Part shown: one piece after another, positions 1 to 23,803 of the stretch
How positions within the stretch are numbered: the first letter of the stretch is position 1
How the letters are laid out: every line of letters begins with the position of its first letter
Source: Trichoplax sp. H2
Taxonomy: Eukaryota
Length of the DNA stretch: 23,928 nt
Reading direction: 5' to 3'
NCBI GenBank assembly: GCA_003344405.1
Contig: NOWV01000133.1
Location: 186,001 to 209,928 of the forward strand
Notes under the pieces: generated by a model
What the model saw: only the letters and a program-made list of their open reading frames with translations
Told to the model about the DNA's origin: nothing
Databases searched by the model: none
Program-made: the position numbers and the translations under genes

Positions 1-111
1 AGTAATTGATATACTTATTTACTATAGTTTACCAGACTGTATTGGAACAACCATGATTCATAATCGTGTAGAGTGATCTAAATAATTTGTAAAACATATT
101 TATTTCCTCAG

Positions 112-3100
112 AGTGGCATACTGGTCGTTGACAGTCCAGGAATTGGTGAGAAGAAAGAAGTACCGCACGCCTTGAGAAGCTACATTTTTAGAGCTGTTGC
201 GTACATCATTGTCGTCAATTCTGCCAATGCTGGAGGAATTCAGGCAGCTAGGGTAAAGTGCTTAATTATACGTTAATGTAGGAGATTGCGATTTATAAAT
301 ATCTTTTATTTAATTTTGTTAGCTTCAAAAATTACTACAACAAATATCAGGTGTGCTAAGAAATGATGGGTATTTAAATTTTAATCCTTCTATGGCACTA
401 TTTATATGTAATAAATGGGATACTGTAGCCGTACCGGAAAGAGAGCTTGTAAAAACTGATAGTATCACCAAGTTGAAGCGGTGCTGGCCAGGTATGATCC
501 AAACCCAAATAATATTTCTATCCATCAAAGAATTGTTGATGGCTAGAGCCGCCAATAATAATGCATTGGTACCACCCGAAGTTGTGCAACTATTCGAAAT
601 GCTTCGTGATTTGATTCCTATTAGTCGAAAACAGAAATTATCGAAATCCTACAGGTGAACGTGATTAAACTATTAGCTTAGAAATGGTTATTCAATCTAA
701 ATTTCAAATATTAAATTTAAAATACTATCTGATTAGAGTTCTGTCTTGGATTAAATAAATCGTATTTAATATTTACTGTTCATTTTTAAGCTTTATGGCT
801 GCTTTCGTTGAAGGTGTACAAGAAACATGTCGATGTTATCTTCTGAGGGCAAAATCAATGGAGAGCGAACTAAAGGAAGATAAATCAAGATTAAAACTAT
901 TGGAAACAACAACGCAAAAGTGTATGAAAGAATTAGTTACGGAAAAAAATGCATTAATAAACGCTCTCATTGCAAAGTATCGGAAATTTGTTGAAAGTCT
1001 GAATAATGAATCCATAGTAAGTTGGTCGGAAAATGACCTTTTAGATAAAGAATTTGATGAAGATAATTTAATGAAATTACAAGAACATGCCGTTCTTAAA
1101 GTTAGGCAACGCTTAAATAATCATTTAGAACTTGTTGCACAAGAGATACATGAAGATCTTCAGATAGCAAAAGACTTATTGTTAGAAAAATTTACCACGA
1201 GACTTGATGAAATTTTTGATCAGACTCAGTCAAAATTAGTTGAATCAGCTGATATCGAAAATGATACACAAACGAATGACTTCTACTTAGATCCAAGAAC
1301 TGGGTATTCGAAATTCTCAGAATTATACGGATTATACGATGTATGGACTAATATGACCGCGGCAAGGAGGGCTGCATTTATCCTTACAAGTCCTGTATGG
1401 GTGGCCCCAGCATTCATAGCTAGCCCTATCTACTATATTACAAAGTTGGTGAAAACCCGAAATCAACAAGAAGAGATTCAGAAATTTAAACAAAACAAAC
1501 CTGAAGAAATGAAAGCTATCACGCTTCTAATTCTTGACCATATCGGTTCAGAAAACTTTGCAAGAAAATTTGTTGTTGAGAAATTTGATTCATTAGCAAC
1601 TTCTCTACTAAACAGTGTTAAAAGTACAATACTAAAATCTTTGCAAAGTAGAATTGATACCATTAAAACGGCTTTAAAGGATAAACGATGCCCTAAAGAA
1701 ATCAACAAGCTTTATAAACCGCTCAAAGAAGATGCTCGAAAACTATTAATAAATTTAAACAACTTTTACTTACAAGAATTAAGTGAATCATCGATTAAAT
1801 TCAAAGATCTACAGGGATTCAATGAAGAATCTACCCCACTGTCATTAGGATTAAAAGTAAAATTATATCGGGCAACGCTGCACAAAAATGATGAAGAAAA
1901 GAACGTTATTATACAAGTCCCTGTTGACAAATCTATGCGTGATATGCATGAATTTGTCAGTAATTGCCAGATTATCAGGTAACCTTTTAATTAATGCATA
2001 AAATAATAAGCTAATTACTTTTCATTGTACAGTGGTTAAAGTAGCTTATAATTGATTCCTACAGTTATGTCAATTGATACTTTATCTCTTACATGGCGAA
2101 TAATATCGTTACTATCTGATCTTTTAATCACCTTATTAGTACTCTGGAATCGCAAAATGTCTTGAAATTTTTAAGTATCTGCTATACTCCACCACCAACA
2201 ATAACGGCAATTGGAATTTTCGAAAATTGTAATTCAACCCTTCGAGACTTGATCTTATACAATGAAACAATTGTTAGTGAAAGCGACTCAGATACTATTC
2301 GTTTCAGAAAGATTTATTCCATGGTTAATCAAATTATACAAGGCATCGTATATTTACATGCGAAAGAATTGATTCATGCCCACTTAACGACTGAAAATGT
2401 ATTGGTATGTTATATAGCTTGTTTTATATTAATAAAATTTAGTAGCCATTAATGTCTCAAAGCTGTTCGCCAAAAAGCAGTTAAAGAAATACTGCACTAT
2501 ATTTATCAATTTTGAACCTAGTAATTATACTCGAGAGGTAATAGTCATTAAAGTATTAAACATTATATAGTGATGGCATTTAATGATCAGTTTTATTGAT
2601 GATAGGTTTCGTTAGACAAAGATCAGCACAAATTAAAGCTGTGCCATGCAACGAAACAATGCACACTCTACGAAGACATTGATTTTGAAGAGTCAATAAT
2701 CCCCTATTTGGCCCCTGAAGTTTTAAAAAGTAGATATATTTCTTTTTTTATTTATTAATACAATATCTAAGATAAATAGGCATGTGGAAATATCGAAAGC
2801 CTTAGCTACGATAACCTGGTTTATGATGCAAACCTTATCTTTTAGCAAATAGTATATCATCTCTAGCTTACTACGTGTTATTAAATCATTCTAGGCTATT
2901 ATTATAAAGAGGCTTCAGATGTCTACAGCTTTGCAATATTGTTTTGGGAAGTTTGGTACTGGAAATTGGTGACTAATTTGTTTGACTGGAATACTAATAC
3001 CTGCCATAGTCAAAAAATAAGCGATCTGTTCAAAATGCATAAACTTACTCCTAAACCTCATAGAAATGTAGACGGAATATGTTTAGATTCCTTGGCTATT

Positions 3101-3172
3101 AATCCCAATGAAAGACCAGATATTATTTCTTGGCATGATATTTTAGAAGATATTACGAAGAATCTTCAATAA
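112..3172 (+). CDS. 5'-partial multi-exon gene: dynamin-like (mitofusin/BDLP-type) GTPase - helical region with hydrophobic segment - protein kinase-like (pseudokinase) fusion, 775 aa visible
   Basis: Exons 112-252, 323-654, 791-1978, 2140-2404, 2606-2729, 2895-3172. All are bounded by AG/GT with consistent phases (0,2,2,0,1); total 2328 nt = 775 aa + TAA. Motifs: ILVVDSPGIG (G3), FICNKWD (G4), QNVLKFLSIC, QIIQGIVYLH, IHAHLTTENVL, YLAPEVLK, SDVYSFAILFWE, NPNERP. The G1 P-loop and start codon lie upstream of the window. The donor at 2730 (GTAGAT) is weaker but gives the phase needed by the 2895 acceptor. Confidence 0.88.
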
Positions 3173-4842
3173 ATATCTCATCTATCTTATGCATAATCTT
3201 TAACATGATTGAAAGATACTTAAGCTAATACACTAACGAAAATTTAATCGGCAGCATTCATGTTTATAAGGCAAATTGGTGACATTATCCATATTGATTG
3301 AATTTTTTTAACTTCTGTCAATTTCTAATTTAACGAACATTTATGTTATTCCGTCCAAAAGACATATCAAGAGGATTTACTTATTAAATTCAAAATATAT
3401 TAAATAGCTTACTTATGCGAAATGTCATGAGCTGAGAGCTCGCTCGAGTAATGAAATATAGATTTAACGTCTATTTAAAACAATTTTAATACATCGCTAA
3501 CTTCTGAACTGATAATTAATCAGTTCTCTAACTTTAATAATAAGCTAATTATCTTTAAGGTTAAATCGATGATTAATCCAACGTAGTTATGATGATTGAA
3601 TAAAACACAAAGAGCACATCTACCAGCCCTGATTAGTGAAATTACTGTGCTACAAATATCTTATTGGGCCTTATCTAAAATTTTACGATAAAGGGAATAA
3701 TGAAATGAAAGGTAGCAGATATGTACCGCTATTAATTTCACATATTAGAATATACGATATACGTGTATAAGCACGAAAGCCATCTCAGTTTCCGAAAGTA
3801 CTGTCAAAATAGTGCTAAAATTTTTTTTCAAAGTAATTATTCAGAGAAGCATAATGATTAAATTATATGCCGCTGAAGATCATTGTTGTATTCAGCGATA
3901 TAAACTGTACTGCAAGTACTGTAAATTGTAGAAAACTTTGAGAAATGCCCATTAAGGCCTCAAGAACACAAGTCAGTCATTTGCGGTACTGTATCCCCCA
4001 AAAATATTAATAATTTATACGGTACTGAAAACATTTAGGACATTTACGCTGGAATGTAAAGGTAAAAGTAAAAAATTTTGCCTGTATACAGTAGATAAAA
4101 ATATCTGATTATAGTGAGATGGTGTAACAATTAAAATCAATTTAAATTATATCACTCTTATTAATACAACCGTTAATATTTGTGCTATAAGATCAGTCCA
4201 ATAGGTTAACTGCAAGAAAAGTCGAGTAGAACTACCGCACGTTGGTTTACGTGTATGCCACAATTAATATTATATATCAGCTAGGGAATGCAAGAGAGAA
4301 GCTGCTCTGTAAAGACTACTCAAGGCTGACAACTGCTATAAAATCGCCAAACACTACTAGATAAAAGGTATACTCAGTATAAGATATGCAGTTAAACGTA
4401 TAAGGCAATACAATATCACCCATACTGTAAATTTCCATTTTATCATTTCAAATTAGATTGTGAATGTTATTAATATCGGACTTCATACTGGATATTACAA
4501 ACAGAGAATACAAGCTGTGCTAGTGATAATGATGAGTTGATCAAAATTGATCTATTCAAAGCTACCTCGGTATCTGATGTTATCTAATGTTGATTAACAA
4601 CGTACACAAGAATGTCGCCCATGAGATCTTATCGATAACTATCTTCTTAGCTGTATAGCCTTGAAAATGAGAGACAATAGAGTTTCGAAGGATTTTATGT
4701 ATATTGGTAGCTCTCGAAAGGCAGAATAGAGGAACTCCACCCAAAGACGAAGGTAAATTTATTTTTCAATTTCCTTACTTAATGAGTTTATGCTGCTATA
4801 GTGATACCAGATGACTGTGACAATATTTACATACAATACAGT

Positions 4843-5866: not shown

Positions 5867-8800
5867 TTAACTTTTAAAGATCATTGGCGCGTTATTTCGC
5901 CTCTGCCTTATCTTCGTAATAATTGCCTGAGCGTCTACATCCTGCAAAAATAGAAAATATTGGATGGTATAAACCACACAAAATATAAAAATTCCTAATT
6001 CATTTATCTAAATAGAGACATTTCCGTAATAGTTTCCATAATATTTAGTGTATAAAATTAGTATAGCATAACCCATCAATGCAGTTTAATTATGAATACC
6101 TTACGGTTTTAAATATAGTTATCTATACGCACGTATGTAAATACTAATTTCATGGAAGTGTATTGAACTATTGATATACTAAACTTAACTAAATGCTGCC
6201 GTAAATTAGGTTAATTTAGGTCAAGAATAACTGTCATAATCTAATTCAATGCATAAAGTTAGTATGGCAAAAACCCATTTCTAAATAAATTTTATAATTT
6301 ATTTGATATTAACGTAAGATCTAAACTAGTAAAAATCTCGAAACCGGTATGAAGGCAGAAGCTAAAATCCTTCAGTATATCTTAACAAATCGATGTCTTA
6401 TTAACTGCTCATCTTATCTCTGAGATTCCGTTAGCGACTTTGATCTTATCTTTAAAAAGGTTATATTCCTAGAGTGATGTATACCTATCATCTAGAATAA
6501 CTACCAAATCTAAAACTACAAATTTCCGTAAGCATTTTATCACGCAACTAAATCATTACCATAAACTTAGCTTAGATAGCACAGTTACTATTGCTGTATA
6601 ATTACATCATAACTTATCTATGATGCGCATACCTTGCAACTTATTAATTTAATATCTACTACGCAAATTTTTCATGGTACTTCCAAAAAGAGACTTAATC
6701 CATGACTATAGGTCTTATTTTAGTTTTTCCATTGATCGAATGGCAGCAAGTGAATAACTAACTTTAAAACTTACGTTTTTAATAAGAGAAATAAGTTGAT
6801 CAACAAAGCCATCATTAGCATCAATATTAGACCGCTTGAATGATTTTTCCACTGATTCGTTTTTGGAGTATCTTCTAGCAAAGCTACCATTAGATACGTT
6901 AGCAGCTTTCACCCTCAATTTTGCAGCCTATTATGAATCACTTACGAGCATTAATTCAAACTGAAGTATGTACTATCGCCATGGTGAGTATTAAATAAAG
7001 CGGAAAACAAAAACTGCAATTTATCCAAAAAATTCGATCATCCATAATAGTTAGATAACCATTAAGTCCATACAATACCCGTATTTATCGAAATATTAAT
7101 AATCTATCAGATTAAATTCTGTTTAAAGAATAATTCATCGTGGGTACTCATTTCATTATCAAAAATTAAATCAAAAATCTCGTATGGTCACGATCAGTGA
7201 TTTTAACTGTATAAACTTATGGCATCATGGTTACTGAAATGTTAAGTATGTATGGTAATGCATAACGTGAATATAGACTATGATTTACGATACATACTAT
7301 TACGTTTATTAAAACATGTTTCTAATATTGTTACTATTTTGGTATTCTTCTTTTCTAGCAGTGCTATCAGTCAATGTATCACCGGTACTTTACATATATA
7401 TTTACATATTACAATCGCTTACTTTTGGAACGAAGACGAGGCACATGGTAACAGTAACACCAAATATAATGAAACCGGAGGTAACTGCAAAACCAGCATT
7501 AACATTGTTGCCGAGAAGCATACTGACAATAATGCCAATTACACACAATAAAGTTGTGTTATAAATTGATAAGCCAATGTAATGGGAATCATTAAGTGCA
7601 GGAATATTAACATGTCTCGTTTCCCAGGCAAGAAATGTTCCAAAAATTAGTACTAGCACCTTTATACAATATAGAATGCCAATCCAAACATAAATGTAAT
7701 TGCAGCTACAATATGCAACATAGTAGTAGATGACCAAATTTAAATCTTCAGTTGAATCCTATCAGAATATTTGACCAGAATGTCAGCAATATTGATCACA
7801 TGATGGTGATAGTTCTGTTGAATATGCTCCAACAGGTAGTTTATACAGAATGTTAAACCATAACCATGATAACTAGTAAGACAGTGCATGGAAGTTAATT
7901 ATTGGACGATATCTAGCGAATCTATTATAAAAATGCAACGATTATGACATTTTTTGCCAATTCCAACGGGCTTAGATAGATTAGTAGATACTGTAGTAGA
8001 TGGAAATCATAACTAGCAATACGCTTACTTTAATGAAATATAGATAAAATTTTTCGTTGCTGCAGAAATAGTCCACTTAAATTAGATTAAGAATGATAAA
8101 ATGTTAAAGTAAATTATATTTTTAATTCGCTAGTGCAATTACCGTAAGGTTTTTAAAAAACACTAACGTATACTTCATAGTTATCGTTTCTACGGTTCCT
8201 ATCATTGCATTATTAGGGGCTAGCTCAAGCTACTGTCATTGACAACTTATTATCATATAGCTCAATTGTAAACCGCGCAGCGTGTTAAACTAGATCATTA
8301 GAATTAATTATAAAGTGCTTTTAATACAATTTAGCAATGAATTGTTTTAATCAACTGTTAGATAAAGTTATACAATCTACCTCAGTTCTTAAAAATCTCA
8401 GCTTGCTAGTTAATGGATCGATCAATTCCCAAATTGTCAAGTAAATAACATCAAATATTACCAAGAAAATGACCATGATGATAAGCTGATAATCTCGAAT
8501 GACCTGATAAAAACAATACTAATATATTAAGATATACGTAAATGTGTACTACAATTTATCAACCCATATGTTGCGTACATGAAGAATTTATCAACAATAG
8601 CTAGAAATTACAATTTTAGTTTTTTTGCCGCTGGTAAAGATTCGGTAAACGCGCCATGTTTTGGTTAGTAGAGATCCAAAAGCGATTGAAAATCCAACGC
8701 TTAGTAACCACACACGAACTGCACATATTGCAGGAGGAAACATCCCGCCAGCACTGTTGGAATCGATACCGAATGTTATCGCTGCAATATAACAAATGAT

Positions 8801-11800
8801 ACAGCCAAAAAGAAATAGATTGTTGATGGTAGGACTTGACATTTTGATATGTCTAACAAATAATATCAAATTCAAGAATTTTAGTAGGATTGATGCTTAT
8901 TAAAGCGAAATTATGTCCCGAGTCATAATTAAATATCCATAATTGTTTAAGGGCTTATATCAAATCAGTGAAGATTTTCCATACAAGTGTAGAGATAGAT
9001 TGCTCAGATAAAACCTTAATTGTTAATATTTTCGATAAAGGTAACAATTATCAATTTTACAGAATCATTTTCAGGTAGATTTTACATTCGCTATAAACAT
9101 CACTATGGTTGAAAGTTAATAAATTACTACGTTAAATCCAATATTAAAATATTCAGCTCACCTGAGTTTTCTGTGAGTAATATTTATTACAAGAAAAATT
9201 GAAGCGCAAATTATAGCTAATACAGCCAGAACAGTCATGGCAAGAAAAGTTGCTCTTGAAATTCCAATAATACTATCCTCGGTTTTTACTTGATCTGCTG
9301 GTACACCTCCACCTGCGATATCGCAAAAAAGAAATAGAAATTATGTCGAGAGCAAGTAATCTTAACAGGATAAAATTAATCCATCAATAGAAGTTATGAA
9401 ACGACCATATTAAATACGCTTATTATCACTAAAAGGATAATTACTGATTCATGGGCGGTAACACATAACAGATTTCTCGTATTTACTCTAACCAACTTGA
9501 TGACAGTTTGCCTTACAATCAACGGAACGCAATCTACAACACAAATATCACACTTACTAATCCAATAAATTTCATCTTCTTTGATATTCATTTTCTCTGT
9601 GAGACCAAAATGTGTCCCAACTTGGACAATTTTTGACTGATTATTCTTGACTATAGTTCATCATTAAATACAGAATTAGTATTAAAGAAAAGTAAGCTTA
9701 TACCCTCAATTGAGAGATAAATAAGGAATACTATCAGTATTAACAACTACAGTATCGCTAATTCTTGATAATCATGTAGACTTTCCGATAACAATTGGTA
9801 GTTTGTAATCATTTATACTTTGGCATTGGTAAATTCCAACGTCAGTTATTCGAGCTCCGTCAGTGAAACGAACTGGTCCCTATAGAACAACAATATAAAA
9901 TTACCTTAGTAATTGATATAAAGTATGAAACTGTTGCACATTGAAGTCTACAACGCATACTTACACTAATTCCAATAAAATTTGTGTTTGACATTTCATT
10001 AAATAAAATACTTCTTATAAAGTTATTTTTATAATGAAAATCAGATAATGTACTTCCACTTTCTTTAAGAATATTCTCAGTTTTGTTTAAAGCCAATGCC
10101 AATGCCCACATTGCATCATAACCATTTATTTGAAAATACTTATAAAGTGAAGGTGGCCGTTGAACATAACTGTAGTAGTGCTCCATGTATTGGGATGAAT
10201 TCTAATAGCATTTCAAAGTATAACATATAGATACATAAAAACATACAGTAAATATTTTAGTCAATTAGATGTAGTAAGCTACATGAATCTGGAATTTAAC
10301 ATCAAAGAAACAAGCCTTTATTTTATCTATGCCAAATTATATAAAGTTATTAATCAGATAGATTTTTGTTATCACATTCGTGTTATACAGCAATCTATTT
10401 TGGCAGCGAAAAATTCGATATAAACTCCTTACAACAGACAACATCTACTTTACGATCCAGCAGACTCGCTGTTGTTAATCAAATTAAGAGCTGATGTAAG
10501 AAGGTACAGTAGAATTAGCAGATTTAATGCATATTCCAAGAAGGTATAATAGTTGATATTAACACCTATTCAGAAACGGAATTGTAAGTTTGGATATTAG
10601 ATTAGCATCAACATGTAAAATGTTTTAGTAATACGTGATTAGTTATGCGTAAATTTCTCACAGAATTGTAACTTATGGAAATTTTACAACAGGATTATTA
10701 CTTTCTACTAACTATATTGGTTAGTCAGTGATAGCCTCATTGTCAATTAATAATTACTTTTAGTCTATAAATTAGTAATTATAAATTAGCCTTTTTTGAC
10801 AATATTCAGAACTATTGAGCCTTTAGATATATATTCCTGAGTACCGTTGCAATATTTTCATCTATTTTGTTAATTTTTCCTATTTTCTATTACCAATAGA
10901 TGAGTGCTAATCATCAAATCTCATTAACTGCCATAATACTGCTCTGTAGATATTATATGGAGTGATAATCATATAGTCTATGAATTACGTGCATTGTGAA
11001 GAAGTTTGATCATAATTTAGCAACAGTTAGTATTACAGGCGTCATTATATACAGAGTAGCATAGAGTCGTTTACGTAGTGATAAAAAATTTTCAAGCATG
11101 ATTGACTTACCATGCCAGAGATTGTGTTTGGATTAAGGCCCAATTTGATATTATTAAAAGTAAAATAGTTTGTTAAAACTTGTTCAATTTCAGCGATAGA
11201 GCAGTTCACATTCCCTTGTCCGAGATTGGATTTCCACCAATCCGTATTATGCCCATATGTAATAAACCAAATATAATGAGGCCCGTATAAACCTTGATGA
11301 TAGGCCTGAAAGCAAGTATCAAAACCATTATGAGAAATTACTATGTAATCACGGGTCATTCACTAACGTAATACGTCGATGCTACCTGTAATTAATCTTT
11401 TATTCCTTACTATTTTAGAAATCGAAGAATATGAAAAACTGAACATTTGTTCGGTATAGATGTAGCATATCATTTTTGATATTCAAATTAAAATGCTGCT
11501 ATGTTATCCCAATAGAATCAGTCAGATAAGCCTACAAATAAATTTATTACAGATTTCGTTTACTGGCTATCAAATACTACAAGACATTCATGAGATAGTT
11601 ATAGATTTCAAAATATGGCATTGTAATTTTACGATGTAGATCTCGCAATTCACTCAGGTAGCACAAACCGTAAAAATGCCAGTAGCATCGAAATACGCGA
11701 ATTATCTATGATACTTCACTAAATACTAAAGCCTTTGATAATTTTTAGGACACTAATAAGACCCGCTTATTTATTTACAATCGCTAAAAATATCCATAAC

Positions 11801-14800
11801 TTATTCCACAATCTATGCAATACGCCAACAGTAAGCCGCGATGTAAATTAGTTAGAAATCCAAAGTCTATAATTAGCCCTACTACTGTACCATATCATTA
11901 AAATTTAATTATTATATTTTTTATCTCAAATTTGAATAATTGCATTATTGATCCTACCTGACAAATAACTCTAATAGAGTTTTCTGTACTAGCGAAAAGC
12001 AAAATAATTCTTGCACCTTTTTCCTACAAAAATTAATCATCGTCACCATTATAACACAATAAAATTGCAACAATAAGTATAGGATTGAACTAATATCAAA
12101 TGATGAGACAATATTCATATTAAACTTCTAAATGTCTACAATAAAATCGTGCATTACCGTCAGTTCTATCGTTATACTGTATTTTATATTTCGTCTTACT
12201 ATAGTAGACTGATCAAAATGCATATTTTAGTCTTAGAAGAGTTACTTTACTGTGTAAAGCCACTAATCAAATACTTGTAATAATTGTCTTTTTAATTATC
12301 AAATTTTGAAATTACTGGTAGAATTCATCAAACGTAAATATCATACGTTATAAGTGATTGTAAAAAACTTATTTATTGGCGAGAAAGTGGTTATAAATAT
12401 CATTAATTTCATTTTATTAATCTCATTTCCGTACCTTAATACTTTTAACCTGAGCGACAGGATCTGTTACAAATGCTTCAGAAGTAACCAATGTGATATT
12501 TTGAGCAATGGCATCTGCAATAAAGTTTTTGGCAGACTAGATATTATAATAAGAAATAAGATAGGTCAGCAATTCATTGATTATAGGCGTAAACTTACAC
12601 ATATCCATTTTTAATAGGTTCTGTAGCACAATGACAAATACATGCTTAATAATTTAAATATCCCGATGATAGATCTAATAGAATAGTATACAGTAGAAAA
12701 AATATTTTGATATTTACATCCTACCAATTTTTATGTTCAATGTTTGGGTACAATAATCCTATTTTATGGCAGCATCTACTGTGATGTAAAACTAATAAAT
12801 AGCTTTCCAGTACCTTATGCTACTGTGATGGAGGGTTCAATATCTCAGAGGATTGATATTTAGTCGCCATTTACAATTATTACACCAAAGGGTTTATAAA
12901 AGTTATGCTTTATTGTAGGTTAGTAATGTGAAGTACAGTGAGGTAGTTACGGTAGATCAGCGTGCAAGCTGTCGTGAGTAACGAGTAGAAGTATTAGACT
13001 GTGAGAGACTAACTAGAAGACTAACTGAGAAGCTAACGAACTCTGAGGTAGAAATCGCCGATATTTATAGTTTTAAAGATAGAGCACATGCAGAGAATAA
13101 GATTGTGGAATTAGATACAACATATACCATAACAGGTTACAAAATAGCAGATGATTGTAGAAAACAGCGAGTACCTTAATAACTAAATACAGTAGTCTAT
13201 ATATGAATGTAGAGTAAGCGGACGGTAGATCTGTCTAAATATAAGAGCAATACAACATGTCTATATTTAAGGATAGAATATAGTTACAGTATATTCTAAA
13301 TACACTACGGCTACATTGCGCAATTTATCTATCTGATAGCAAGCAGCAGATATGATCACGAAGGTATTCGGAACACTTGATATACTAATATGCCCTATCT
13401 TAAAATCTATTAATAGCTAACTTCTAAGCCATTAGTATATTAACAGTAATTTAATACCGGTAACGTATCCATGATACTTGCGCTTATTTAATGCATTATA
13501 TTTCAATATACAGTATTTAAGATATCTGTTAGTAATAATTCAAGCCAAAAAATCATTTTTGTACTCATTTATGGTATTATACAGAAGAAAATTACATTTG
13601 TCACAAATCATTAATTCGAACAGTTATTATAACAAATTCTGTCTTCATTCATTAATTGCAGTATGAATAATACTTTGAAATTTAATTCATGTAAGACACC
13701 TACCGTTTCGTCAGTTTCTTCAATGTAATGGATGGTAGCAACACGGGTCCAGTTGTAGCGTTTTAAAAGGGCAATTCTAATTTGGTTCAGGGTAATATCC
13801 GTAGTTTCCGTTGTGAAAAAGTGAGGATATGTGGCTCTGTTTATTAGAGCAGCTGATGAAACTCCACTAGCTATCTATTAAAGCAGATTAAGTAGATCAT
13901 ACAATTAATTATAAGAGTTTCAGATATCCTATAATCCAGTTAAAATATCGTACTACCTCCGCTTTCAATAGTAATTCAACTAAGATTACAACGTGCTACC
14001 TCGCATTGGTCTACAGTACATATTCATTTAAGTGCAATAATAATACCTCCTTTTTGAACTTAAGCTTAGTAGCACTATTCCAAACTAAAAGTATTCAGTG
14101 ACAGCTGTTAGCCGTTGAATGAATAATGTAGCGATATAGTAAACCGAAATGTACTAAAATTATGAAATATCAATTTTACCGTTATCAAATTCCAATATTT
14201 AGCGATCGATGCAACAGGTTTCGCACAAATGCTAGTCAATGGACCGAAGGTGGCAATTTTAATAGGTCCAGTTGTGACAGCGTCGAAGAAGGATTTGGTT
14301 GTCACCCAAGTTTTATACTGAAAAGAAATTGATTACTGAGAACATATTTTTATATATAAAAGCATGACAGACCAGTAAAATAGATAGACGTCTATGTCCT
14401 AGCGAACTGTATAAACGTGGAATGCCGTCATAAATTGCAAGATAAAGATTTCTTGTAAACAACATACTCAAATACCATTATTAACAATTTAAAAATTGAT
14501 TAAATGTATTGCTAAGAAAATTAAAATATTAATCTTAACTTAACTCAGGGATCTCAGAACCTAAGTTATGCTAACTGATCAGTTATATCTTAAGAAGTTC
14601 TATTCCTTAATCAGAATTTGCATCAACTGTGTTACAACCGCATACATCAAGCTGCTATGGAGATCGCTATAATTTTGTTTGCGCCATATTCGAATATAAA
14701 TTTTATATATCAAGGACTACTGCAATCCCGTAAATATAAGTACATATGAAAAGGCTCGTACATATATAAAGTTTATTTTATTCTAGCAGCCTTTAGTTAT

Positions 14801-17480
14801 ATCATCCATTATCATTCACCCAGCAGCTGAACAAACGAATATAACATGTAACACATTTAAATATATTGATTTAAAAATTATAATATATCTTAGTGATGAT
14901 AGTTAACTCAATGCATAAAACTCATTAACTAATTAAGTTATTAAAGTATGTTCCATAAAAGCGATTCTTCATAAAGGACTTGAGTAGCCGATTAGGTGAT
15001 CAGAACCAAACAGTGGAAATTGAGCTAAAAAGCTAACAGTTAACCAGCATAGTATGCGCGTTGATAAAAAAGGTGTCTGTAGGATAAAAGGTAACGTAGT
15101 ACTGATTATATCAGTACAGAGACTAATACGTGAAGAGTAGATCTATAGTATTCCCTATGCAGTGGATTGCAACACATGAGGAAGAGAACATCTACTATCT
15201 TTAATTTAAAGCTACTGACTATACTATTGAAATCTGATATCATCTTCGAGGAAGGCATTCTTTCATCTACTGAATACAATAGCGCATATAGTAACTACAC
15301 TCACTACCCTTGTTATAAAACCTAAATAAACAGTAAATGTTTAGAAAAGATCCATGTATTCATCGTCAAAGGATTACAGTGACACAGTGGAGACTAATAC
15401 CTTATCTAGTCATATAAAAACAAATTATGGCACGGAAGTTTGAAAATCCATAATCACCTGTCTTTCAAATGGTAAAACATATAACTAATATGTTCATCAT
15501 TGAAAGATTACCGAGATATGTATGAAGGTAATGCCTAAGCTTGTAATAAAGCAATAAATTGTCATACTAGTAAAGACTGAAAATTATAAGCACCTGTCTT
15601 CCGGACGGTAAAATATGTAACTAATGTGGTCCGCGATATATAAGAGGGTAATGCTAAATCTAGTTATAATGGAATAAATTGTCACACTAAAGTCTGATAA
15701 TTATGAGCACCAACCTTTCGAACAGTAAAGCATACAACTATATACTTATTGAAACTACATTATACGACTGTGATGTACCGAAATGAATATTCGCGAATTT
15801 CAGTTTATACTATGAAATTGATCGCTGTTAGAGAGGAACAAGTCCTTCCACATTAGTGGACTTCCTGAATAATGCAGTGATACTGAATTTAAATTTATTC
15901 TGCTCAATAAGGACGTTGATTTACTTCTAGAAATCCTTAAATTGAGAAACAAACCAAAGGGCACAGCCCATCAACCTACATGTATATGTATAAAATGAAG
16001 TGGAATCTAGAGCACTGAAATCGAATTAGCCTGCGGATACTGCGTTAAGTATATTTAGTAAAGATATTTAACTTCCCATTTCCATAAAAGCATGAAATGA
16101 AAAGGTGAAATTATTGTTATGTTCTCTTCATTGGTGCATCAGATCTTATCTCGATAGAAACCTGTACACGGACAAGCCATGAATTAACCATAACACAAAA
16201 ATTTAGACTTGCAGGCGATAACAATTATTATATGATCGATTATAATTATGTCATACGAGAACAAAAAAAACTCAATTATTTATCATTCTGCTGGAGATGC
16301 TTTACTCATCCTAAAATAATTCAATTTACTCCTACGGTTTTTTGAATAGATTACTGTAATAAAAAGTAAGAAAAATTATAAACTGCTTTTCCATTTATTC
16401 TGGAATCAAATGATTATTGGTAAAACTTTTGATTTCAATGCCCGAAAGCATTAAGCATAATTAATAATGAAAATGTCATTTACGCCTTTATACAATACCA
16501 ACTTAAAATCTTATTGACGTTGAATTTATTTGACTACTGGGCTTACGGCGCCTAGATAGATTCCCTTACCATAAAGCGAATCGATACTGAAATTAACTAA
16601 GTATTATTTCTCTATTCGTAATTAAAAGATGAATCAAGTTTTACCAAATTTGCCGCACAAAAATGCTTAAAGATATGCTCTATATTGAATGATTGAAATT
16701 ACTATTTTCATTCTTGGACTCCCACATGATAGTTATCATGTTGGCCAATTCATATTAAAAACCAGAATAGACGATACTTTAATGTCTATTCTCCCCCACA
16801 TTCTAGAACTTGTGAATTATTTCTAATCTGTCACAACTGCGTCTTCTAGAAATTATTGGTAAATTGTGTCCATTGCTAGACCTTCACAGGTTAATAAGGC
16901 AAAAGATAATCTTAAATTGTTTACAAATCCATTTTCTAGACACCCAGTATTTAACGGATATACTCAGTTAAAGCGATATTAATAGAATGCATTTAATATA
17001 ATTGCCATGATGCAATTTCAAAGCCCGATGGCTATAATAAAGATAGCTCTATGATACATTGCATCATTTCAAAGCTAATCTTGATAAATTTGAATTAATG
17101 CAACAACATAAATACTGGTATGAGAAAACATTAGCTCAGGTCTCTCTCTTAATTATTTCCTCGCTCCATTAGAACACAGGATACTAAATGATTTTGCTAA
17201 TACCGAATACTTAAACGGTGACCTATTTTTTAACAATAATACCTACCTCCGTATCCCATACATCCATGGAAAGTTTATATTCAGGCAAAATATCGGATCT
17301 ATTATTGATATCTAGGATAGCCAGTCTACCAGCATCCAATGTCATTTTTCCAAGAAATGTAATGTACGTGTTACTTAATGGCAGAAAGCCCGCAATTGTT
17401 AGAGTTTTATTCTTGGCTGCAACAGTCAAGGAGAAGCTTGCTGTGAAGAGTATTATTATACTGCACCATAAAACCTTCAT
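5867..17480 (-). CDS. GABA-B receptor-like class C GPCR (signal peptide, Venus flytrap domain, 7TM resembling GABA-B2), about 791 aa, 15 exons
   Basis: Exons (minus strand): 17480-17247, 14317-14180, 13874-13704, 12536-12435, 12023-11958, 11305-11111, 10201-9965, 9879-9819, 9650-9558, 9312-9162, 8852-8612, 8503-8381, 7758-7423, 6927-6775, 5941-5867. All are AG/GT with matching phases. Signal peptide MKVLWCSIIILFTASFSLTVAA. VFT motifs: DINNRSDILPEYKL, YWNL, YPHFF, YNWTRVATI, GARII, GLYGPHYIWF, GYDAMWALALALNKT. No cysteine-rich domain (GABA-B type); stalk WI-GGVPAD. 7TM motifs: IKMSSP, KTWRVYRIF, AWETRHVNIPALNDS, FVPK. The last exon is the least certain. Confidence 0.93.
15441..15741. repeat. 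Degenerate tandem repeat (about 2.4 copies, period about 117-136 bp) in intron 1 of the GPCR gene
   Basis: Anchors tgaaaat..cacctgtcttt (15441), tgaaaattataagcacctgtctt (15578) and tgataattatgagcacc (15695). The blocks ggtaatgc and aataaattgtca(t/c)acta recur in copies 1 and 2. Confidence 0.75.
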
Positions 17481-20400
17481 AGTGGCAATTCCGAGTTATA
17501 TAAATTTAGATTCCCAAAGTGATGATCGTTGATTAGAATTAAAAGTAGGTTACGAAGATACAATCGCTCGCTTTAACTTGTCCGTAATATTCCTACGCAA
17601 ATCCCCAACGTCTACTACAAGTTGAACTAATATTACAGTAATAACGGAATTCGATTGCAATTGTACTGTCACAAATATGCATTAATGCCTACAATAATAG
17701 CTTAAAATTTGAAGGTTACTTGATTCCTTATTGTACAGTGCTAAAATAAAGGGTTTATCCATTCGAAATAAAGCAGTATATTGTTGTATTCCAGTAATCT
17801 ATATTTATCGATATAATACGTAATAATTATAAAGAACGCGAATCTTTACAATATCACAATAGTTTTTTTCGGCTACAAGTATATTCAGCTATTCATAAGG
17901 AAAAGCTGGTTATTATCTACCGCGGTTACAATCAATCATATAGCTTAATTTAGCAGGTAATTTTGCTGGCTTTGTACTTAAACACAATATCCTAAACAAA
18001 ATCAAAAATTGATATCCATGAATTAATCATAAAATGGAATAATATTACCTGCAAGGCTTACTTTATTGTTTTATTTTTACATTATAGAAAAAACTATATC
18101 TTGTGGCGAACGAAAGTATAAATTAGTTATGTTAAGCTTACATCATTATTAAAAAAATTTAGAGTCTATGTGATAATAGATTGATGTCAATCTGTCTTCT
18201 TAATACAGGATTTCATGAGGCAAAGGAATCGAATAATCTAAAAGGACGCGTTGAACTCGTAAGGTATATCCGCATAAAAATTGGAAAGATTTCTCTCAAA
18301 TATCTAAACACAATTTATTGTGTTAAAGAGCAATAAAATAGTGAAAATAATATTTTCGCAAGTTTTCAGGTTGTAGACGAGAGACTTGAAAATTTACTCT
18401 CTCGCCTTGGAAGTCAGTCCAATTATTAGTTTCAAATTGCAACAGCTTTAGCCAAAAAATTTGCTATCTTTTGGTCTAAAAGTACTTGTCGAATTTAATA
18501 TTTACTATATTATGCAAGAAAAATTTAATCAGCTTTTCAAATTTCTTGTCTCAGAATTAGCTAATATTTGGTTGTATGATAATAATTCGTGTAATCAACT
18601 CTTAAGAGAGAATCAATTCCAGCAGGATAGGCATCACAGAAGAAGTAAAACAAATGAATTTACTTCGTATTATTACAGAAACAACAAAATAAAACTGATC
18701 CAATAGATAGCAAAGCTGCCGAACTGTCAATAAGTTTTGATGGTGATGTCAATGCTGATCAATAAGTCAATAATAAATAGGAATGGATAATAGATTTAGT
18801 CAAAAGAAATTTTACATAACTGAATCTTGAATATTACAATAAGCACATAAACAGAATATATTAAGGATCAAGTATTCAATTTGCTATTTATATGAAAGTA
18901 GATTACGGCTGAGGGCAAGCTAATGGATTATAGAAATTTATCGCCATTACCACTTATAATACGATTGTACAAAAATCGCACTTTCATTATAACCTACAGT
19001 AGATTAATTCTATGTTATTCTTGCACAAACATAATCTTTCAACAACGAGTGACTCTCAAATTTATTGTCGATAAGCAGGCTGCAACTGCCAATTATAAAT
19101 GCATTGAGAGCCTGTATCAAATGATATTCAGAGGTAATTTCCTGTCGGATATTAATGAAATAATACAATAATTTGGCTATCATATATTATTAATGCACCT
19201 AGAGTTATTGATCATTAATTACGAAAACATATATAGAACCTTTTGAAACCTCTTCACTTTATTGTATCTAAACATCTCGAGGTGATCATGTAACACCTAT
19301 CTAGATCTCTATTTAATATTCTTCGCCATTCCATCACCAAGATATCATAGTTTTACATAAATAGCTCTTAACATGGATGCGAATTAGAGGCCTATGTAAT
19401 TGCCTAAGAAAAATGCCTAGGATCCCTGATAATCCTGATTGTTATGCCACAAAACTGTTTCATTTTTAATAAGTACCTAGTTGCTGTAAAATTATTAACC
19501 TTTAGCTTTAAAACACTCGCTTATTATCAGTATTATTGCTTAAACATTAACAACGAATGGGTGTATATATCTTGTTAGACACTTATTAGAATTATGAATA
19601 GGAATAATACTAATAATCAACAGACACAAACGGTAGAGTGGACTGTTAACTAAGTTTTCTTTAATATACTTATAATTCACGAAATAATTTATGTACTGAC
19701 GGTATTTAATTACCAGCCCATTTCTCTGAATTGCATTAAGAATTAAATCCTTTAATCATTTAAAATGTAAACAGCTTTTTAAATCTATTATTATCTAAAT
19801 ACAAAAATACGGACGGCCCAGATAGCTATAATTTCCTTAATATTCGTACCCGCTATAGCCTAAAATCATTGCCATCCCTGCAATATCTTCAAAACTAACT
19901 CTTTACCTATGCCTTTGCTACGCATTCGATTATTACCAATTTCTCAAGTACTACGCTAAAATGGATACAAATCATCATCGGGCCGATACTAGATCTTCCA
20001 AGACTATTTCATCGCATTGTAAGACAATAAAATAATAATTTAATAAATTGATTGATCCATAATCAAACATTTACCGTATTCTATCCAATAATCTGCTATT
20101 ATAATTTTTTAGCGATAGTCTACTAACTTACAACAGTCCATTTCACGTATTATATAGATGCAATAGCTAAATTAATTTTTGAATCCATTAGAGTAGATTG
20201 AGCTAGGCTAAGCCATATGATAATGGCCAAGCCAACATTTCAGATATTATTATTCCTTCAAGCTAAACATATGTTAATATCCATACATTTTTTATTGTTA
20301 AAATCAGGTAAATAAAAATAAGAATGAAGACGATGAGCCTAGTAGGCTACGCATACATTATCAAGTGATATTTACTAATCAATACTCGTATTGAGAACAT

Positions 20401-22683: not shown

Positions 22684-23263
22684 CCAATAAATTTCTGTTT
22701 TTTAACAGTATTAGATTAATACGTTTACTATAGGATGTAAGCTTATGCTATATTATTTTGTATGGAATTGATTGCTTGTAAAAATAATCTAAGTCCGTTT
22801 ATCCGGTTTATCTTAGCCGTTTTCGACTGATTATATGAGGTGAAAATTGAATTCACTCTCACGGATAGACGGAATAATAAACGTAGTTTTAAAATTACTC
22901 TCTCGGTTGTGACGATTTATTGCATATCATAAGGATTTGCTTAACTTAAATAACTCAGATTAAGAGTTAGAGGTCGCGAACCTATAGTAATGGTAAAAGA
23001 CTATTACTCGGTCATAACAATGTTATTTAAATCTGTGTTTCTAAACAAGATGATTGTAACTGTATGTAGTAGAGCTGAACAGTTACGATGAATATTATTT
23101 ACTACATGAATCACAATTCAAATTCTGTAAATATAACGCTAAACTAATAGCTAGTATCAAAACAGGATATCGAATGTGCTTATAGAATTTAGTGATATTT
23201 TCTTACTAAAACCTTCGAGCTTAAATATGTTATTAACAAAGTGTTAGGTAAAGCTATTCTTAC

Positions 23264-23803
23264 TTTCGCTTTCTTTTCATTATATTAAGCGAAAGGAAAA
23301 CAATTGCCAAAATTATTGCCGCGATTGCCAGTATATTTACAGTGATAAAGACATGCTGGGAAACACCAATAATTCTGACTTCAACTTTAACCGTATCAGC
23401 GGGTACAGCTCCACCTAGAATTATCATTAATAATGAATTATTATTAAGTACATACAAATCACGGAAATCTGTAATCTGGAGGTAAGAAGTGCTAATTGCA
23501 GAAATATGAAAAATACGGCGATTATTAAACTATCTAACTGTCTCCATAACGAGAAAATGATATTTCTTAAGGATAAATCTCGTAAACTAACATTACTGAT
23601 TGTTAGTGTAATGGGTAGTCCTCAAAGGTAATGTTGACTTTCTTAATCTAACATATTAGCATTTAGTATTTATCGTCCAAGCTAAAAAAGTAAGACTGTG
23701 CAGGACATACCTATCCAATAGATTTTATTCTCATAAATCTGTAGTTCATTTGTTATACCATAATGTAGACTAATAGGAATAACGTTCGATTCGTTTCCAA
23801 TAA
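23264..23803 (-). CDS. Partial second GABA-B receptor-like paralog: end of Venus flytrap/stalk exon and TM1 exon (5' part outside window, 3' part not found)
   Basis: Exons 23803-23711 (93 nt; IGNESNVIPISLHYGITNELQIYENKIYWI) and 23414-23264 (151 nt; GGAVPADTVKVEVRIIGVSQHVFITVNILAIAAIILAIVFLSLNIMKRKR). They have the same lengths and phases as exons 9 (93 nt) and 10 (151 nt) of the downstream gene. About 25/51 aa are identical over the TM1 exon by manual alignment. Confidence 0.88.

What the first reader, a model, noticed from the sequence alone, without database searches (positions are those of the whole stretch)
112..3172. Dynamin-like GTPase fused to a membrane segment and a dead kinase domain
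Seen: one continuous spliced frame links dynamin-family G3 (DSPG) and G4 (NKWD) motifs, a long helical region interrupted by a hydrophobic stretch, and a C-terminal kinase fold. Established: GTPase-helix-membrane segment-helix is the layout of mitofusins and bacterial dynamin-like proteins, which have no kinase domain. The nearest comparators I recall are DSTYK/RIPK5-like proteins, which have active kinases. Inference: a membrane-remodelling GTPase controlled by a pseudokinase switch, loosely analogous to MLKL (effector plus pseudokinase), possibly in innate immunity or cell death. This would be a candidate undescribed family.
Basis: partly seen in the sequence, partly recalled or inferred. 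Interest (0 to 1): 0.75.

Follow-up and report, generated by a model that had tools for sequence, protein, structure and literature searches.

The report
Dynamin-like GTPase fused to dead kinase
This is a real, expressed gene of the simple animal Trichoplax that joins a bacterial-dynamin-like membrane GTPase to an inactive kinase domain; it belongs to a large, unnamed and apparently unstudied gene family of marine invertebrates.

Summary

The "undescribed family" reading is half right. The same architecture occurs in at least 138 protein clusters from amphioxus, hemichordates, corals, octocorals, bivalves, a nemertean and a brachiopod. They are labelled "uncharacterized" or "DSTYK-like". Ten literature searches found no description.

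Of 107 full-length members, 99 keep the GTPase residues and only 65 keep the kinase catalytic residues. The MLKL, immunity and cell-death ideas are untested.

Best reading: a membrane-anchored fusion-type dynamin-like GTPase with a conserved, non-catalytic kinase-fold regulatory module. A possible deep link to vertebrate DSTYK could not be tested here.

The parts
112..252 (+). Exon with the end of the GTPase core. G3/switch II DSPG is at 130-141. The gene's 5' exons (N-terminal helices, G1 P-loop, G2) lie upstream of the window.
   Evidence: acceptor AG 110-111, donor GT 253-254. (joint 252/323 in X4, X11, X5; RNA contigs continue 5' into sequence not in the window). (Dynamin_N E 0.017, below cut-off on this exon alone).
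323..654 (+). Exon with G4 NKWD (410-421) and the last part of the G domain. It includes 39 nt (about 492-530) that the public gene model wrongly removes.
   Evidence: three RNA contigs cover 322-654 without a gap. Paralogues keep the 13 residues.
655..790 (+). Intron 2. It is spliced in all three RNA runs, but also present unspliced in short RNA contigs. If retained, the frame stops at TGA 656-658, just after the G domain.
   Evidence: joint 654/791 at depths 8.2, 32.3 and 13.1; unspliced contigs 625-818 or 625-793 at depths 6.2, 15.2 and 7.4.
791..1978 (+). Large exon holding three things in one open frame: the helical stalk (trunk/neck helices), the hydrophobic hairpin, and the first part of the kinase fold (beta1-beta3, helix C). 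Gln (1914-1916) stands in place of the beta3 Lys.
   Evidence: 100% identity to P0001; kinase Pfam match starts at P0001 residue 743; the exon covers residues 387-782.
1371..1451 (+). Hydrophobic, Pro-rich 27-residue segment (P0001 581-607). It is the family's conserved membrane hairpin or paddle candidate.
   Evidence: the top hydrophobic peak in 8 of 8 family members scanned, at the equivalent place. (consensus keeps a TSPxWxPxG pattern); this region of the model has low confidence, so its shape is not shown.
2140..2404 (+). Kinase-fold exon (hinge, helices D/E, catalytic loop). The catalytic loop reads HAHLTTEN at 2375-2398. The HRD Asp is replaced by His; the loop Asn is kept.
   Evidence: PK_Tyr_Ser-Thr 2.7e-7; joints 1978/2140 and 2404/2606.
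2606..2729 (+). Kinase-fold exon. Cys-His-Ala (2642-2650) stands in place of DFG. APE is kept (2711-2719).
   Evidence: alignment with active relatives P0006 and P0023.
2895..3172 (+). Last coding exon (kinase C-lobe), stop TAA 3170-3172. RNA contigs run on into the 3' UTR at least to 3500.
   Evidence: PK_Tyr_Ser-Thr 9e-5; joint 2729/2895; contigs reach 3500.

Best explanation
The region is the 3' three-quarters of one expressed Trichoplax adhaerens gene, TRIADDRAFT_54954. The true product is about 1017 aa.

Shown:
- The protein has N-terminal helices, a dynamin-family G domain with intact G1-G4, and a long helical neck/trunk. The trunk is interrupted by a conserved hydrophobic, Pro-rich segment.
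- Directly after the last stalk helix comes a complete protein-kinase fold. It lacks the ATP-anchoring Lys, the catalytic Asp and the metal-binding Asp.
- The first ~735 residues resemble the bacterial dynamin-like protein BDLP over its whole length.
- The protein belongs to an old, widespread family of marine invertebrates. In that family the GTPase residues are nearly always kept, and the kinase residues are lost in about 4 of 10 members.

Inferred mechanism:
- It works like a fusion-type dynamin-like protein (BDLP or mitofusin). The hairpin anchors it in the cytosolic leaflet of an endomembrane.
- GTP binding drives G-domain pairing and opening of the stalk, which tethers, bends or fuses membranes.
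- The dead kinase domain hangs from the C-terminal stalk helix. In BDLP that helix returns to the neck beside the G domain. The kinase domain would therefore act as a non-catalytic docking or regulatory module that couples a partner or signal to the GTPase cycle.

Which membrane and which process are not known. Tandem, lineage-specific expansion hints at a fast-evolving role such as endolysosomal or phagosomal handling or cell-autonomous defence.
For: One gene, expressed:
- All five joints occur in RNA contigs of two studies and are absent from the unspliced run.
- One contig (X5 record 16) joins exons 3-6 and the 3' UTR. Another (X5 record 13) joins exons 1-2 to 1447 nt of upstream sequence.
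- The kinase N-lobe and the stalk share exon 3.

Identity: 100% over exon 3 to P0001.

GTPase:
- Dynamin_N 6.6e-22. The G1 P-loop, G3 and G4 are present.
- P0001 residues 1-387 hit BDLP 2j68 at 3.4e-8, Campylobacter DLP at 1.6e-6 and mitofusin-1 only at 0.012.
- The kinase-less relative P0122 hits BDLP at 4.6e-17 and MFN2 at 1.9e-7.

Fold:
- AF2 model: mean pLDDT 74.4, pTM 0.61.
- Foldseek rank 1 is 2j69_A BDLP: E 4.0e-16, 735 alignment columns, TM 0.50 on the target. SynDLP and IniA also match.

Dead kinase under constraint:
- Gln for the beta3 Lys, His for the HRD Asp and His-Ala for the DFG region are shared by the paralogues.
- Kinase-domain identity between paralogues is 55-59%, against 61-63% for the G domain and 47-61% for the stalk.

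Family:
- 138 proteins at E<=1e-10, of which 120 are listed.
- 99 of 107 keep the G1 Lys, G3 Asp and G4 Asp; 65 of 107 keep the kinase Lys/Asp/Asn/Asp.
- The hydrophobic peak sits at the equivalent place in 8 of 8 members scanned.
Against: - No biochemical, localisation or phenotype data exist for any member that I could find.
- The hairpin region of the model (residues 533-602) has pLDDT under 50. Membrane insertion therefore rests on hydrophobicity and position alone. The Trichoplax stretch is the second least hydrophobic of the 8 scanned (1.61; range 1.38-2.27).
- The structure was predicted for the public model, which lacks 13 G-domain residues. That spot (345-359) is low-confidence.
- No single RNA contig spans the whole transcript. 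Contigs cannot show transcript ends.
- Intron 2 is also found unspliced, so part of the RNA may encode only the G domain.
- Pseudokinases that lack these residues sometimes still bind nucleotide or catalyse by other residues.
- The TM-score to BDLP is moderate (0.37 on the query, 0.50 on the target, rmsd 11 A), as expected if the hinge angles differ.
Confidence: 0.6

Rival explanations
1. It is simply the placozoan form of the DSTYK ('dusty' kinase) family. On this view vertebrate DSTYK and these proteins are homologous over their full length. DSTYK would have kept the kinase and lost the GTPase motifs, while Trichoplax did the opposite. The finding would then be a diverged member of a named, though poorly understood, family.
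For: [quoted passage not shown]
- The active members share an HRDLKL-type catalytic loop and Asp-Val/Leu-Gly in place of DFG. From memory, both are also DSTYK traits.
- From memory only, the N-terminal third of vertebrate DSTYK has a stretch resembling this family's P-loop/switch I and G3 regions, with the catalytic residues replaced.
- Passages of PMC6981171 place DSTYK on late endosome/lysosome membranes and report that overexpression promotes their fusion. That would fit a fusion-DLP ancestry.
Against: - Not tested. No DSTYK sequence could be fetched. The third homologue search was filled by coral gene fragments, and the PDB holds no DSTYK chain among the hits.
- The ESM Atlas search of the non-kinase part, with dynamin families skipped, gave no DSTYK-like cluster.
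- The automatic names of other relatives are inconsistent (MAP3K12, FGFR4, CSK, mitofusin-2-like). The DSTYK-like label may therefore reflect the kinase domain only.
Confidence: 0.35
2. The kinase domain is not dead. It would bind ATP and phosphorylate through displaced residues, as WNK-type or other atypical kinases do, so the protein would be a bifunctional GTPase-kinase like ROCO/LRRK proteins.
For: - The fold is complete.
- The catalytic-loop Asn and the APE motif are kept, and the domain is as conserved as the G domain among paralogues.
- 65 of 107 relatives look catalytically competent.
Against: - Three of the four core catalytic residues are replaced at once, and the Gly-rich loop is degenerate.
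- The replacements (Gln, His, His-Ala) are not the compensating patterns I know of.
- The same losses occur in the Trichoplax paralogues examined (P0003 lacks the catalytic-loop segment altogether).
Confidence: 0.08
3. The fusion is an artefact of reading, and the GTPase and kinase parts are separate neighbouring genes or alternative transcripts.
For: - No single RNA contig covers the whole gene.
- Intron 2, right after the G domain, is also seen unspliced and would end the frame at 656-658.
Against: - The stalk and the kinase N-lobe lie in one exon and one open frame, 759-1982.
- The joint 654/791 is seen in three RNA runs from two studies.
- The same architecture is predicted independently in over 100 proteins of seven phyla.
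Confidence: 0.02
4. The gene is a decaying copy in a tandem array, and its kinase domain is a neutral relic on the way to loss.
For: - It sits in a small paralogue group (TRIADDRAFT_54945, 54951, 54954 on one scaffold).
- The models of 54951 and of its Trichoplax sp. H2 counterpart lack the catalytic-loop segment.
- Of 9 exonic differences between strains or runs, 4 change the protein.
Against: - The reading frame is open through six exons, and the gene is transcribed and spliced in two studies.
- The degenerate motifs are identical or similar between paralogues that are only 48-57% identical overall. Kinase-domain identity is 55-59%, above most of the stalk.
Confidence: 0.05

Closest known systems
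Bacterial dynamin-like protein BDLP of Nostoc punctiforme (PDB 2J68, 2J69, 2W6D) and other bacterial DLPs (Campylobacter DLP1/2 5OWV, IniA 6J72, SynDLP 7ZW6)
   Same: - It is the best sequence match of the G domain.
- It is the best fold match, and the match runs over BDLP's full length: G domain, neck, trunk and the tip where the membrane paddle sits.
- The hydrophobic segment lies in the middle of the helical region.
   Different: - This is an animal protein with introns.
- It carries an extra ~120-residue N-terminal helical region and a ~280-residue kinase fold at the C-terminus. No bacterial DLP that I know of has these.
- Sequence identity to BDLP is only about 16%.
Mitofusins / Fzo1 (MFN1 5GOM etc., MFN2 6JFK, Fzo1 9KFD)
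   Same: The order is the same: GTPase, helical bundle, membrane hairpin, helical bundle. Mitofusins are the eukaryotic fusion-type DLPs. One relative is even auto-named 'mitofusin-2-like'.
   Different: - Sequence similarity is weaker than to BDLP (0.012 against 3.4e-8 for P0001).
- There is no Fzo_mitofusin Pfam match.
- The hydrophobic stretch is shorter (about 27 residues).
- A kinase fold is added.
DSTYK (dusty kinase, 'RIPK5')
   Same: - It also has a C-terminal TK/TKL-like kinase domain behind a long N-terminal region without a Pfam domain.
- Relatives of the finding are auto-named DSTYK-like.
- DSTYK is reported on endolysosomal membranes, with a fusion-promoting effect (PMC6981171, passages seen).
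   Different: - DSTYK's kinase is regarded as active, and it is not annotated as a GTPase (recalled; the RIPK review PMC10492769, passages seen, only says its domain make-up is different).
- Here the GTPase motifs are intact and the kinase is dead.
- Full-length homology was not tested.
ROCO proteins (LRRK1/2 and relatives): Roc GTPase + COR + kinase
   Same: They are the known paradigm of a GTPase and a kinase in one polypeptide with cross-talk between the two. Some ROCO members have dead kinases.
   Different: The ROCO GTPase is Ras-like (Roc), not dynamin-like. ROCO proteins have no BDLP-type stalk and no membrane hairpin, and the kinase is not at the same relative position. No homology outside the kinase fold is implied.
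MLKL (four-helix-bundle executioner + pseudokinase)
   Same: It resembles the finding only in logic: a membrane-acting module attached to a pseudokinase that serves as a switch.
   Different: Here there is no four-helix-bundle domain, the domain order is opposite, and the effector is an NTPase. No tool result links the two.

Membership tests
Dynamin superfamily, BDLP/mitofusin (fusion-type DLP) branch | Large G domain with G1 (P-loop GxxxxGKS/T), G2 Thr, G3 DxxG and G4 N/TKxD | tested here: met
   G1 and the G2 Thr are in P0001 upstream of the window. G3 is at window 130-141 and G4 at 410-421. Dynamin_N 6.6e-22. The G1 Lys, G3 Asp and G4 Asp are kept in 99 of 107 family members.
Dynamin superfamily, BDLP/mitofusin (fusion-type DLP) branch | Helical neck and trunk built from sequence on both sides of the G domain, overall BDLP-like fold | tested here: met
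   AF2 model. Foldseek rank 1-2 are BDLP 2j69_A and 2j68: E 4e-16 and 1.8e-14, 735-757 columns, TM 0.50 and 0.47 on the target. IniA and SynDLP also match. The TM-score is moderate.
Dynamin superfamily, BDLP/mitofusin (fusion-type DLP) branch | Membrane-inserting paddle or hairpin in the middle of the helical region | tested here: inconclusive
   A conserved hydrophobic Pro/Gly-containing segment sits at the equivalent place in 8 of 8 members scanned.
Dynamin superfamily, BDLP/mitofusin (fusion-type DLP) branch | GTP-dependent G-domain dimerisation and membrane remodelling | not testable with these tools
   Needs biochemistry. No complex prediction was run.
Mitofusin/Fzo family proper | Fzo_mitofusin C-terminal heptad-repeat domain and closest sequence kinship to MFN/Fzo1 | tested here: not met
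   No PF04799 match at E<=0.01. MFN1 gives E 0.012 against BDLP 3.4e-8.
Eukaryotic protein kinase superfamily (TK/TKL-like) | Bilobal kinase fold | tested here: met
Eukaryotic protein kinase superfamily (TK/TKL-like) | Catalytic residues: beta3 Lys, HRD Asp, catalytic-loop Asn, DFG Asp | tested here: not met
   Gln, His, Asn (kept) and His/Gln respectively. It is therefore a pseudokinase by sequence. 65 of 107 relatives keep all four.
DSTYK (dusty kinase) family | Orthology or full-length homology with vertebrate DSTYK, including its N-terminal region | not tested
   No DSTYK sequence could be obtained. The only support is automatic 'DSTYK-like' names of relatives and my recollection.
MLKL-type executioner pseudokinases | N-terminal four-helix-bundle killer domain followed by a pseudokinase | tested here: not met
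   The N-terminal part is a BDLP-like GTPase plus stalk, and the pseudokinase is C-terminal to it. Only the logic is comparable.

The most novel reading that the evidence does not exclude
Animals inherited, or acquired very early, a BDLP-like fusion GTPase fused to a kinase. This family would be the ancestral, GTPase-competent form of the lineage that became vertebrate DSTYK.

On this reading the uncharacterised N-terminal two-thirds of DSTYK are a degenerate dynamin-like GTPase plus stalk. That would explain why DSTYK sits on lysosomal membranes and promotes their fusion.

The placozoan proteins would be the mirror image, with a live GTPase and a dead kinase. The two enzymatic halves would then be separable, and each could serve as a non-catalytic regulator of the other.

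In invertebrates the family's tandem expansions would mark a membrane-remodelling arm of cell-autonomous defence.
Probability: 0.3. Interest if true: 0.8.

Novelty: new variant of a known kind. Interest (0 to 1): 0.6.

Why it matters
Fusion-type dynamin-like proteins (mitofusins, atlastins, BDLPs) are not known to carry a kinase module. The only well-studied GTPase-kinase fusions are the ROCO/LRRK proteins.

This family shows that a BDLP-like membrane GTPase was joined to a kinase early in animal evolution. The fusion was kept in at least seven phyla and expanded in tandem arrays. The kinase half lost catalysis repeatedly, while the GTPase half almost never did.

That pattern is a natural experiment on how a (pseudo)kinase can regulate a membrane-remodelling GTPase.

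If the untested link to DSTYK holds, it would give a mechanistic frame for a disease-linked 'dark' human kinase. The phenotypes include urinary tract malformation, spastic paraplegia SPG23 and scoliosis in zebrafish. These disease links come from reference titles seen and the abstract seen.

Tried and rejected
- **Whole-genome search of the window's genome.** No genome is held for this window.
- **Paralogues in the window.** A tblastn of P0001, P0002, P0004 and P0006 against the window found nothing outside 103-3169.
- **Exon 3 against 1.84 billion representatives.** Only 8 hits at E<=1e-3. Two are Trichoplax paralogues; the rest are distant family members or single-exon fragments.
- **Fetching vertebrate DSTYK to test N-terminal homology.**
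  - PDB searches with P0001 and P0006 listed no DSTYK chain.
  - The ESM Atlas with the N-terminal part gave bacterial DLP clusters (0.93) and a mitofusin cluster (0.90). With dynamin families skipped, it gave only scores of 0.86 or less to unrelated bacterial clusters.
  - The last homologue search used the C-terminal 538 residues of P0035, to exclude full-length members by length. Coral gene fragments filled its list.
  - The question stays open.
- **Literature.**
  - Ten searches found no paper on a dynamin-kinase fusion or on these loci (one search was a syntax error).
  - The Dusty-kinase paper PMC4277547 is not held.
  - The dynamin survey PMC10280142 (passages seen) explicitly left mitofusins and BDLPs out of its analysis.
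  - Supplements are closed. Gene lists there, such as Trichoplax cell atlases or coral and amphioxus expression tables, may mention family members.
- **Placement of the placozoan clade.**
  - The full-length FastTree puts it with an all-degenerate amphioxus+Saccoglossus clade (97*), but with long-branch warnings.
  - With the kinase domain removed, the position is an open trichotomy.
  - The AU test does not reject that grouping (p 0.51), and the rival grouping with cnidarians has support 56.
  - I therefore do not claim a shared ancient pseudokinase subfamily.
- **Earlier notes of this scan.** Nothing relevant.
- **VIA second look.** It listed only kinase matches, because the kinase domain fills the list. 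It says nothing about the N-terminal part.
Full report
**What is in the sequence**

The window is AT-rich eukaryotic DNA with 27-34% G+C. Positions 112-3172 on the + strand read as six exons: 112-252, 323-654, 791-1978, 2140-2404, 2606-2729 and 2895-3172. Every acceptor is AG and every internal donor is GT. The spliced frame is 2328 nt with a single terminal stop.

Exon 3 is 100% identical at protein level to the public protein 'uncharacterized protein TRIADDRAFT_54954 [Trichoplax adhaerens]' (P0001, 1004 aa). My spliced product equals its residues 243-1004, with two differences. One is a Lys/Glu difference. The other is 13 extra residues that the public model removes as a 39-nt 'intron'. The window therefore starts inside an intron of this gene. 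The N-terminal helices, the P-loop and G2 lie upstream.

**Transcript evidence**

I laid Logan contigs of three RNA runs from two studies (X4 and X11 of P2, X5 of P3) and one unspliced, DNA-like run (X1) on window 1-3500.

- Joints 252/323, 654/791, 2404/2606 and 2729/2895 occur in all three RNA runs. Joint 1978/2140 occurs in X11 and X5.
- All joints have GT..AG ends, and none appears in X1.
- One contig of X5 joins exons 3-6 and runs into the 3' UTR beyond 3500.
- Another contig joins exons 1-2 to 1447 nt of upstream sequence that is not in the window.
- Three contigs cover 322-654 without a gap, so the model's 39-nt intron is not real.
- No single contig spans the whole gene.
- Short contigs also carry intron 2 unspliced. 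That form would stop at TGA 656-658.

The kinase N-lobe (Pfam match from P0001 residue 743) and the stalk both lie in exon 3, which covers residues 387-782. This independently excludes two separate genes.

**Domains**

- On the whole protein, Pfam gives Dynamin_N 6.6e-22 (residues 129-295) and PK_Tyr_Ser-Thr 2e-25 (743-989). On single exons the dynamin match is below cut-off (0.017). The kinase matches are 2.7e-7 and 9e-5.
- G1 is intact upstream. G3 DSPG is at 130-141 and G4 NKWD at 410-421.
- The strongest hydrophobic peak of the protein is a 27-residue, proline-rich stretch at window 1371-1451. The equivalent peak is present in 8 of 8 family members scanned, usually longer and more hydrophobic.
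- In the kinase fold, Gln replaces the beta3 Lys (1914-1916). The catalytic loop reads HAH...N (2375-2398). Cys-His-Ala stands where DFG should be (2642-2650). APE is kept (2711-2719).

**Fold**

An AlphaFold2 model of P0001 was built with a 50-sequence family alignment (A1). It has mean pLDDT 74.4 and pTM 0.61. Confidence is low at 533-602 (the approach to the hairpin and the hairpin itself) and at 345-359 (where the public model lacks 13 residues).

- Foldseek against the PDB ranks full-length Nostoc BDLP first and second. 2j69_A gives E 4.0e-16, 735 columns and TM 0.50 on the target. 2j68 gives 1.8e-14.
- SynDLP and IniA also match, and many tyrosine and TKL kinases match the C-terminus.
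- By sequence, P0001 residues 1-387 hit BDLP at 3.4e-8, Campylobacter DLP at 1.6e-6 and mitofusin-1 at 0.012. A kinase-less amphioxus relative hits BDLP at 4.6e-17 and MFN2 at 1.9e-7.
- Feature search in the ESM Atlas likewise puts bacterial DLP clusters first (0.93) and a chordate mitofusin cluster at 0.90. This is a lead only.

**The family**

Exon 3 alone finds few relatives: 8 at E<=1e-3 among 1.84 billion representatives. One of them, an amphioxus protein (P0006, 1023 aa), has the same architecture with an active-looking kinase.

Searching with P0006 gave 138 proteins at E<=1e-10 among 8000 scored candidates, of which 120 were listed.

- Sources are Branchiostoma (many), Saccoglossus and Glandiceps, stony corals (Acropora, Montipora, Stylophora, Pocillopora, Oculina), octocorals (Dendronephthya, Xenia), bivalves (scallops, Mytilus), Lineus and Lingula.
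- Nearly all carry Dynamin_N plus kinase Pfam domains.
- Names are 'uncharacterized', 'DSTYK-like' (9 of 120) or inconsistent automatic labels (MAP3K12, FGFR4, CSK, mitofusin-2-like).
- Locus tags and shared contigs show tandem groups in Oculina, B. belcheri, Dendronephthya and Trichoplax (54945, 54951, 54954).

Absence from other phyla cannot be concluded from a capped list.

**Census**

I aligned the 107 of 128 then-stored proteins that are 850-1200 aa long. The other 21 were dropped for length.

- The G1 Lys, G3 Asp and G4 Asp are all present in 99 of 107.
- The four kinase residues (Lys, Asp, Asn, Asp) are all present in 65 of 107, and 42 are degenerate.
- The degenerate members are 24 of 55 amphioxus, 4 of 23 stony coral, 5 of 5 octocoral, 1 of 2 hemichordate, 3 of 3 placozoan and 5 of 11 unnamed-source proteins. 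None of the 6 bivalve proteins, nor the single nemertean and brachiopod proteins, is degenerate.
- The Trichoplax proteins are the only ones with Gln at the beta3 Lys position. Three unnamed-source proteins carry Arg there.

**Constraint on the dead kinase**

Identity between P0001 and its paralogue P0004 is 63% in the G domain, 47% in each stalk half, 49% in the hairpin and 55% in the kinase domain. Against P0003 the figures are 61, 54/61, 51 and 59%. The degenerate motifs are shared. Loss of catalysis therefore predates the placozoan duplications, and the domain has been kept since.

Among runs, 9 exonic differences were seen, 5 silent and 4 replacing. That is too few to test selection.

**Phylogeny**

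The three placozoan proteins form one clade (100*).

- A full-length FastTree joins them to an all-degenerate amphioxus+Saccoglossus clade (97*). It needs at least 5 changes of kinase state. It also warns of long branches and odd composition for exactly these rows.
- With the kinase domain removed (54 rows chosen by me to represent each clade, IQ-TREE quick), the placozoan position is an open trichotomy.
- An AU test does not reject either grouping (p 0.51; alternative support 56).

I conclude that the kinase died several times in the family. I do not claim that the placozoan and deuterostome dead-kinase groups share one loss.

**How it most likely works**

Shown:
- There is one expressed protein.
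- It has a motif-intact dynamin-type G domain and a BDLP-like overall fold.
- A conserved hydrophobic segment lies in mid-stalk.
- It carries a conserved kinase fold without catalytic residues.

Inferred from what is established for BDLP and mitofusins:
- The hydrophobic hairpin sits in one leaflet, so both ends face the cytosol.
- GTP drives G-domain pairing and stalk opening, which tethers, bends or fuses membranes.
- In BDLP the last helix returns to the neck next to the G domain. The appended pseudokinase is thus placed to sense or control the nucleotide-driven hinge, or to recruit a partner.

The target membrane is unknown.

Two weak hints exist. Tandem, lineage-specific expansion is a pattern typical of defence genes. 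The other hint holds only if the DSTYK link is real: zebrafish and mammalian DSTYK are reported on late endosomes and lysosomes and promote their fusion (PMC6981171, abstract and passages seen).

**Comparison with the known**

- It works like, and by the tests above is a member of, the BDLP/mitofusin branch of the dynamin superfamily.
- It is not a mitofusin proper: it has no Fzo_mitofusin domain and is more weakly similar to mitofusins.
- It is a pseudokinase by sequence.
From memory, DSTYK's N-terminal region resembles a degenerate version of this family's G domain. I could not fetch a DSTYK sequence, so this remains untested.
- ROCO/LRRK proteins are the closest functional analogy for a GTPase-kinase fusion. 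MLKL is an analogy in logic only.

**Novelty**

The gene and its relatives are in public databases but unnamed. Ten full-text searches found no description of a dynamin-like GTPase fused to a kinase or of these loci. A 2023 survey of dynamin-related proteins says it excluded mitofusins and BDLPs (PMC10280142, passages seen). Subscription journals and supplements were not searchable.

I class it as a new variant of a known kind: a fusion-type DLP with a kinase or pseudokinase module. It is widespread rather than placozoan-specific.

Noticed in passing
window 492-530: The public gene model (P0001) removes 39 nt as an intron. Three RNA contigs read straight through, and the paralogues and other family members keep the 13 residues, which belong to the G domain. 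The deposited protein is therefore 13 aa too short.
   Followed up: yes
window 655-790: Intron 2 appears unspliced in short RNA contigs of all three RNA runs, at roughly half the depth of the spliced joint or more. The retained form would end at TGA 656-658, right after the GTPase domain. It could be a G-domain-only isoform or just pre-mRNA.
   Followed up: partly
window 1047: The window has A (Lys). All four runs and the public protein have G (Glu). Eight further exonic differences exist among runs; of the nine in total, 5 are silent and 4 replacing.
   Followed up: partly
window about 6700-17500, minus strand: The neighbouring gene is a class C GPCR. 7tm_3 exons lie at 7402-7758 (5e-18) and 8591-8896 (1e-21). 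ANF_receptor ligand-binding exons lie at 9860-10201 and 13611-13874. An ORF at 23260-23529 (-) looks like a first transmembrane helix of another receptor, but it had no Pfam match.
   Followed up: partly
P0002 / P0003 (TRIADDRAFT_54951 and its Trichoplax sp. H2 counterpart): Both models lack about 30 residues spanning helix E and the catalytic loop of the kinase fold. Either an exon was missed or this paralogue has a further-eroded pseudokinase.
   Followed up: no
P0005, P0007, P0008, P0009 (unnamed sources, 352-399 aa): These fragments cover stalk, hairpin and kinase N-lobe, and end at about the same point in helix C where Trichoplax exon 3 ends. This suggests that the large stalk-to-kinase exon and its 3' boundary are conserved across animals.
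   Followed up: no
family members P0096, P0106 (amphioxus), P0092 (Oculina), P0018, P0037: Some predicted relatives carry extra Pfam domains (PF13365 trypsin-like peptidase, PF18738, PF00743, PF00854/PF07690). They may be true further fusions or merged gene models.
   Followed up: no
family-wide, N-terminal part: By sequence, fold and language-model features, the animal proteins are closer to bacterial dynamin-like proteins than to mitofusins. This raises the question of an early transfer from bacteria versus descent from the mitofusin stem.
   Followed up: partly
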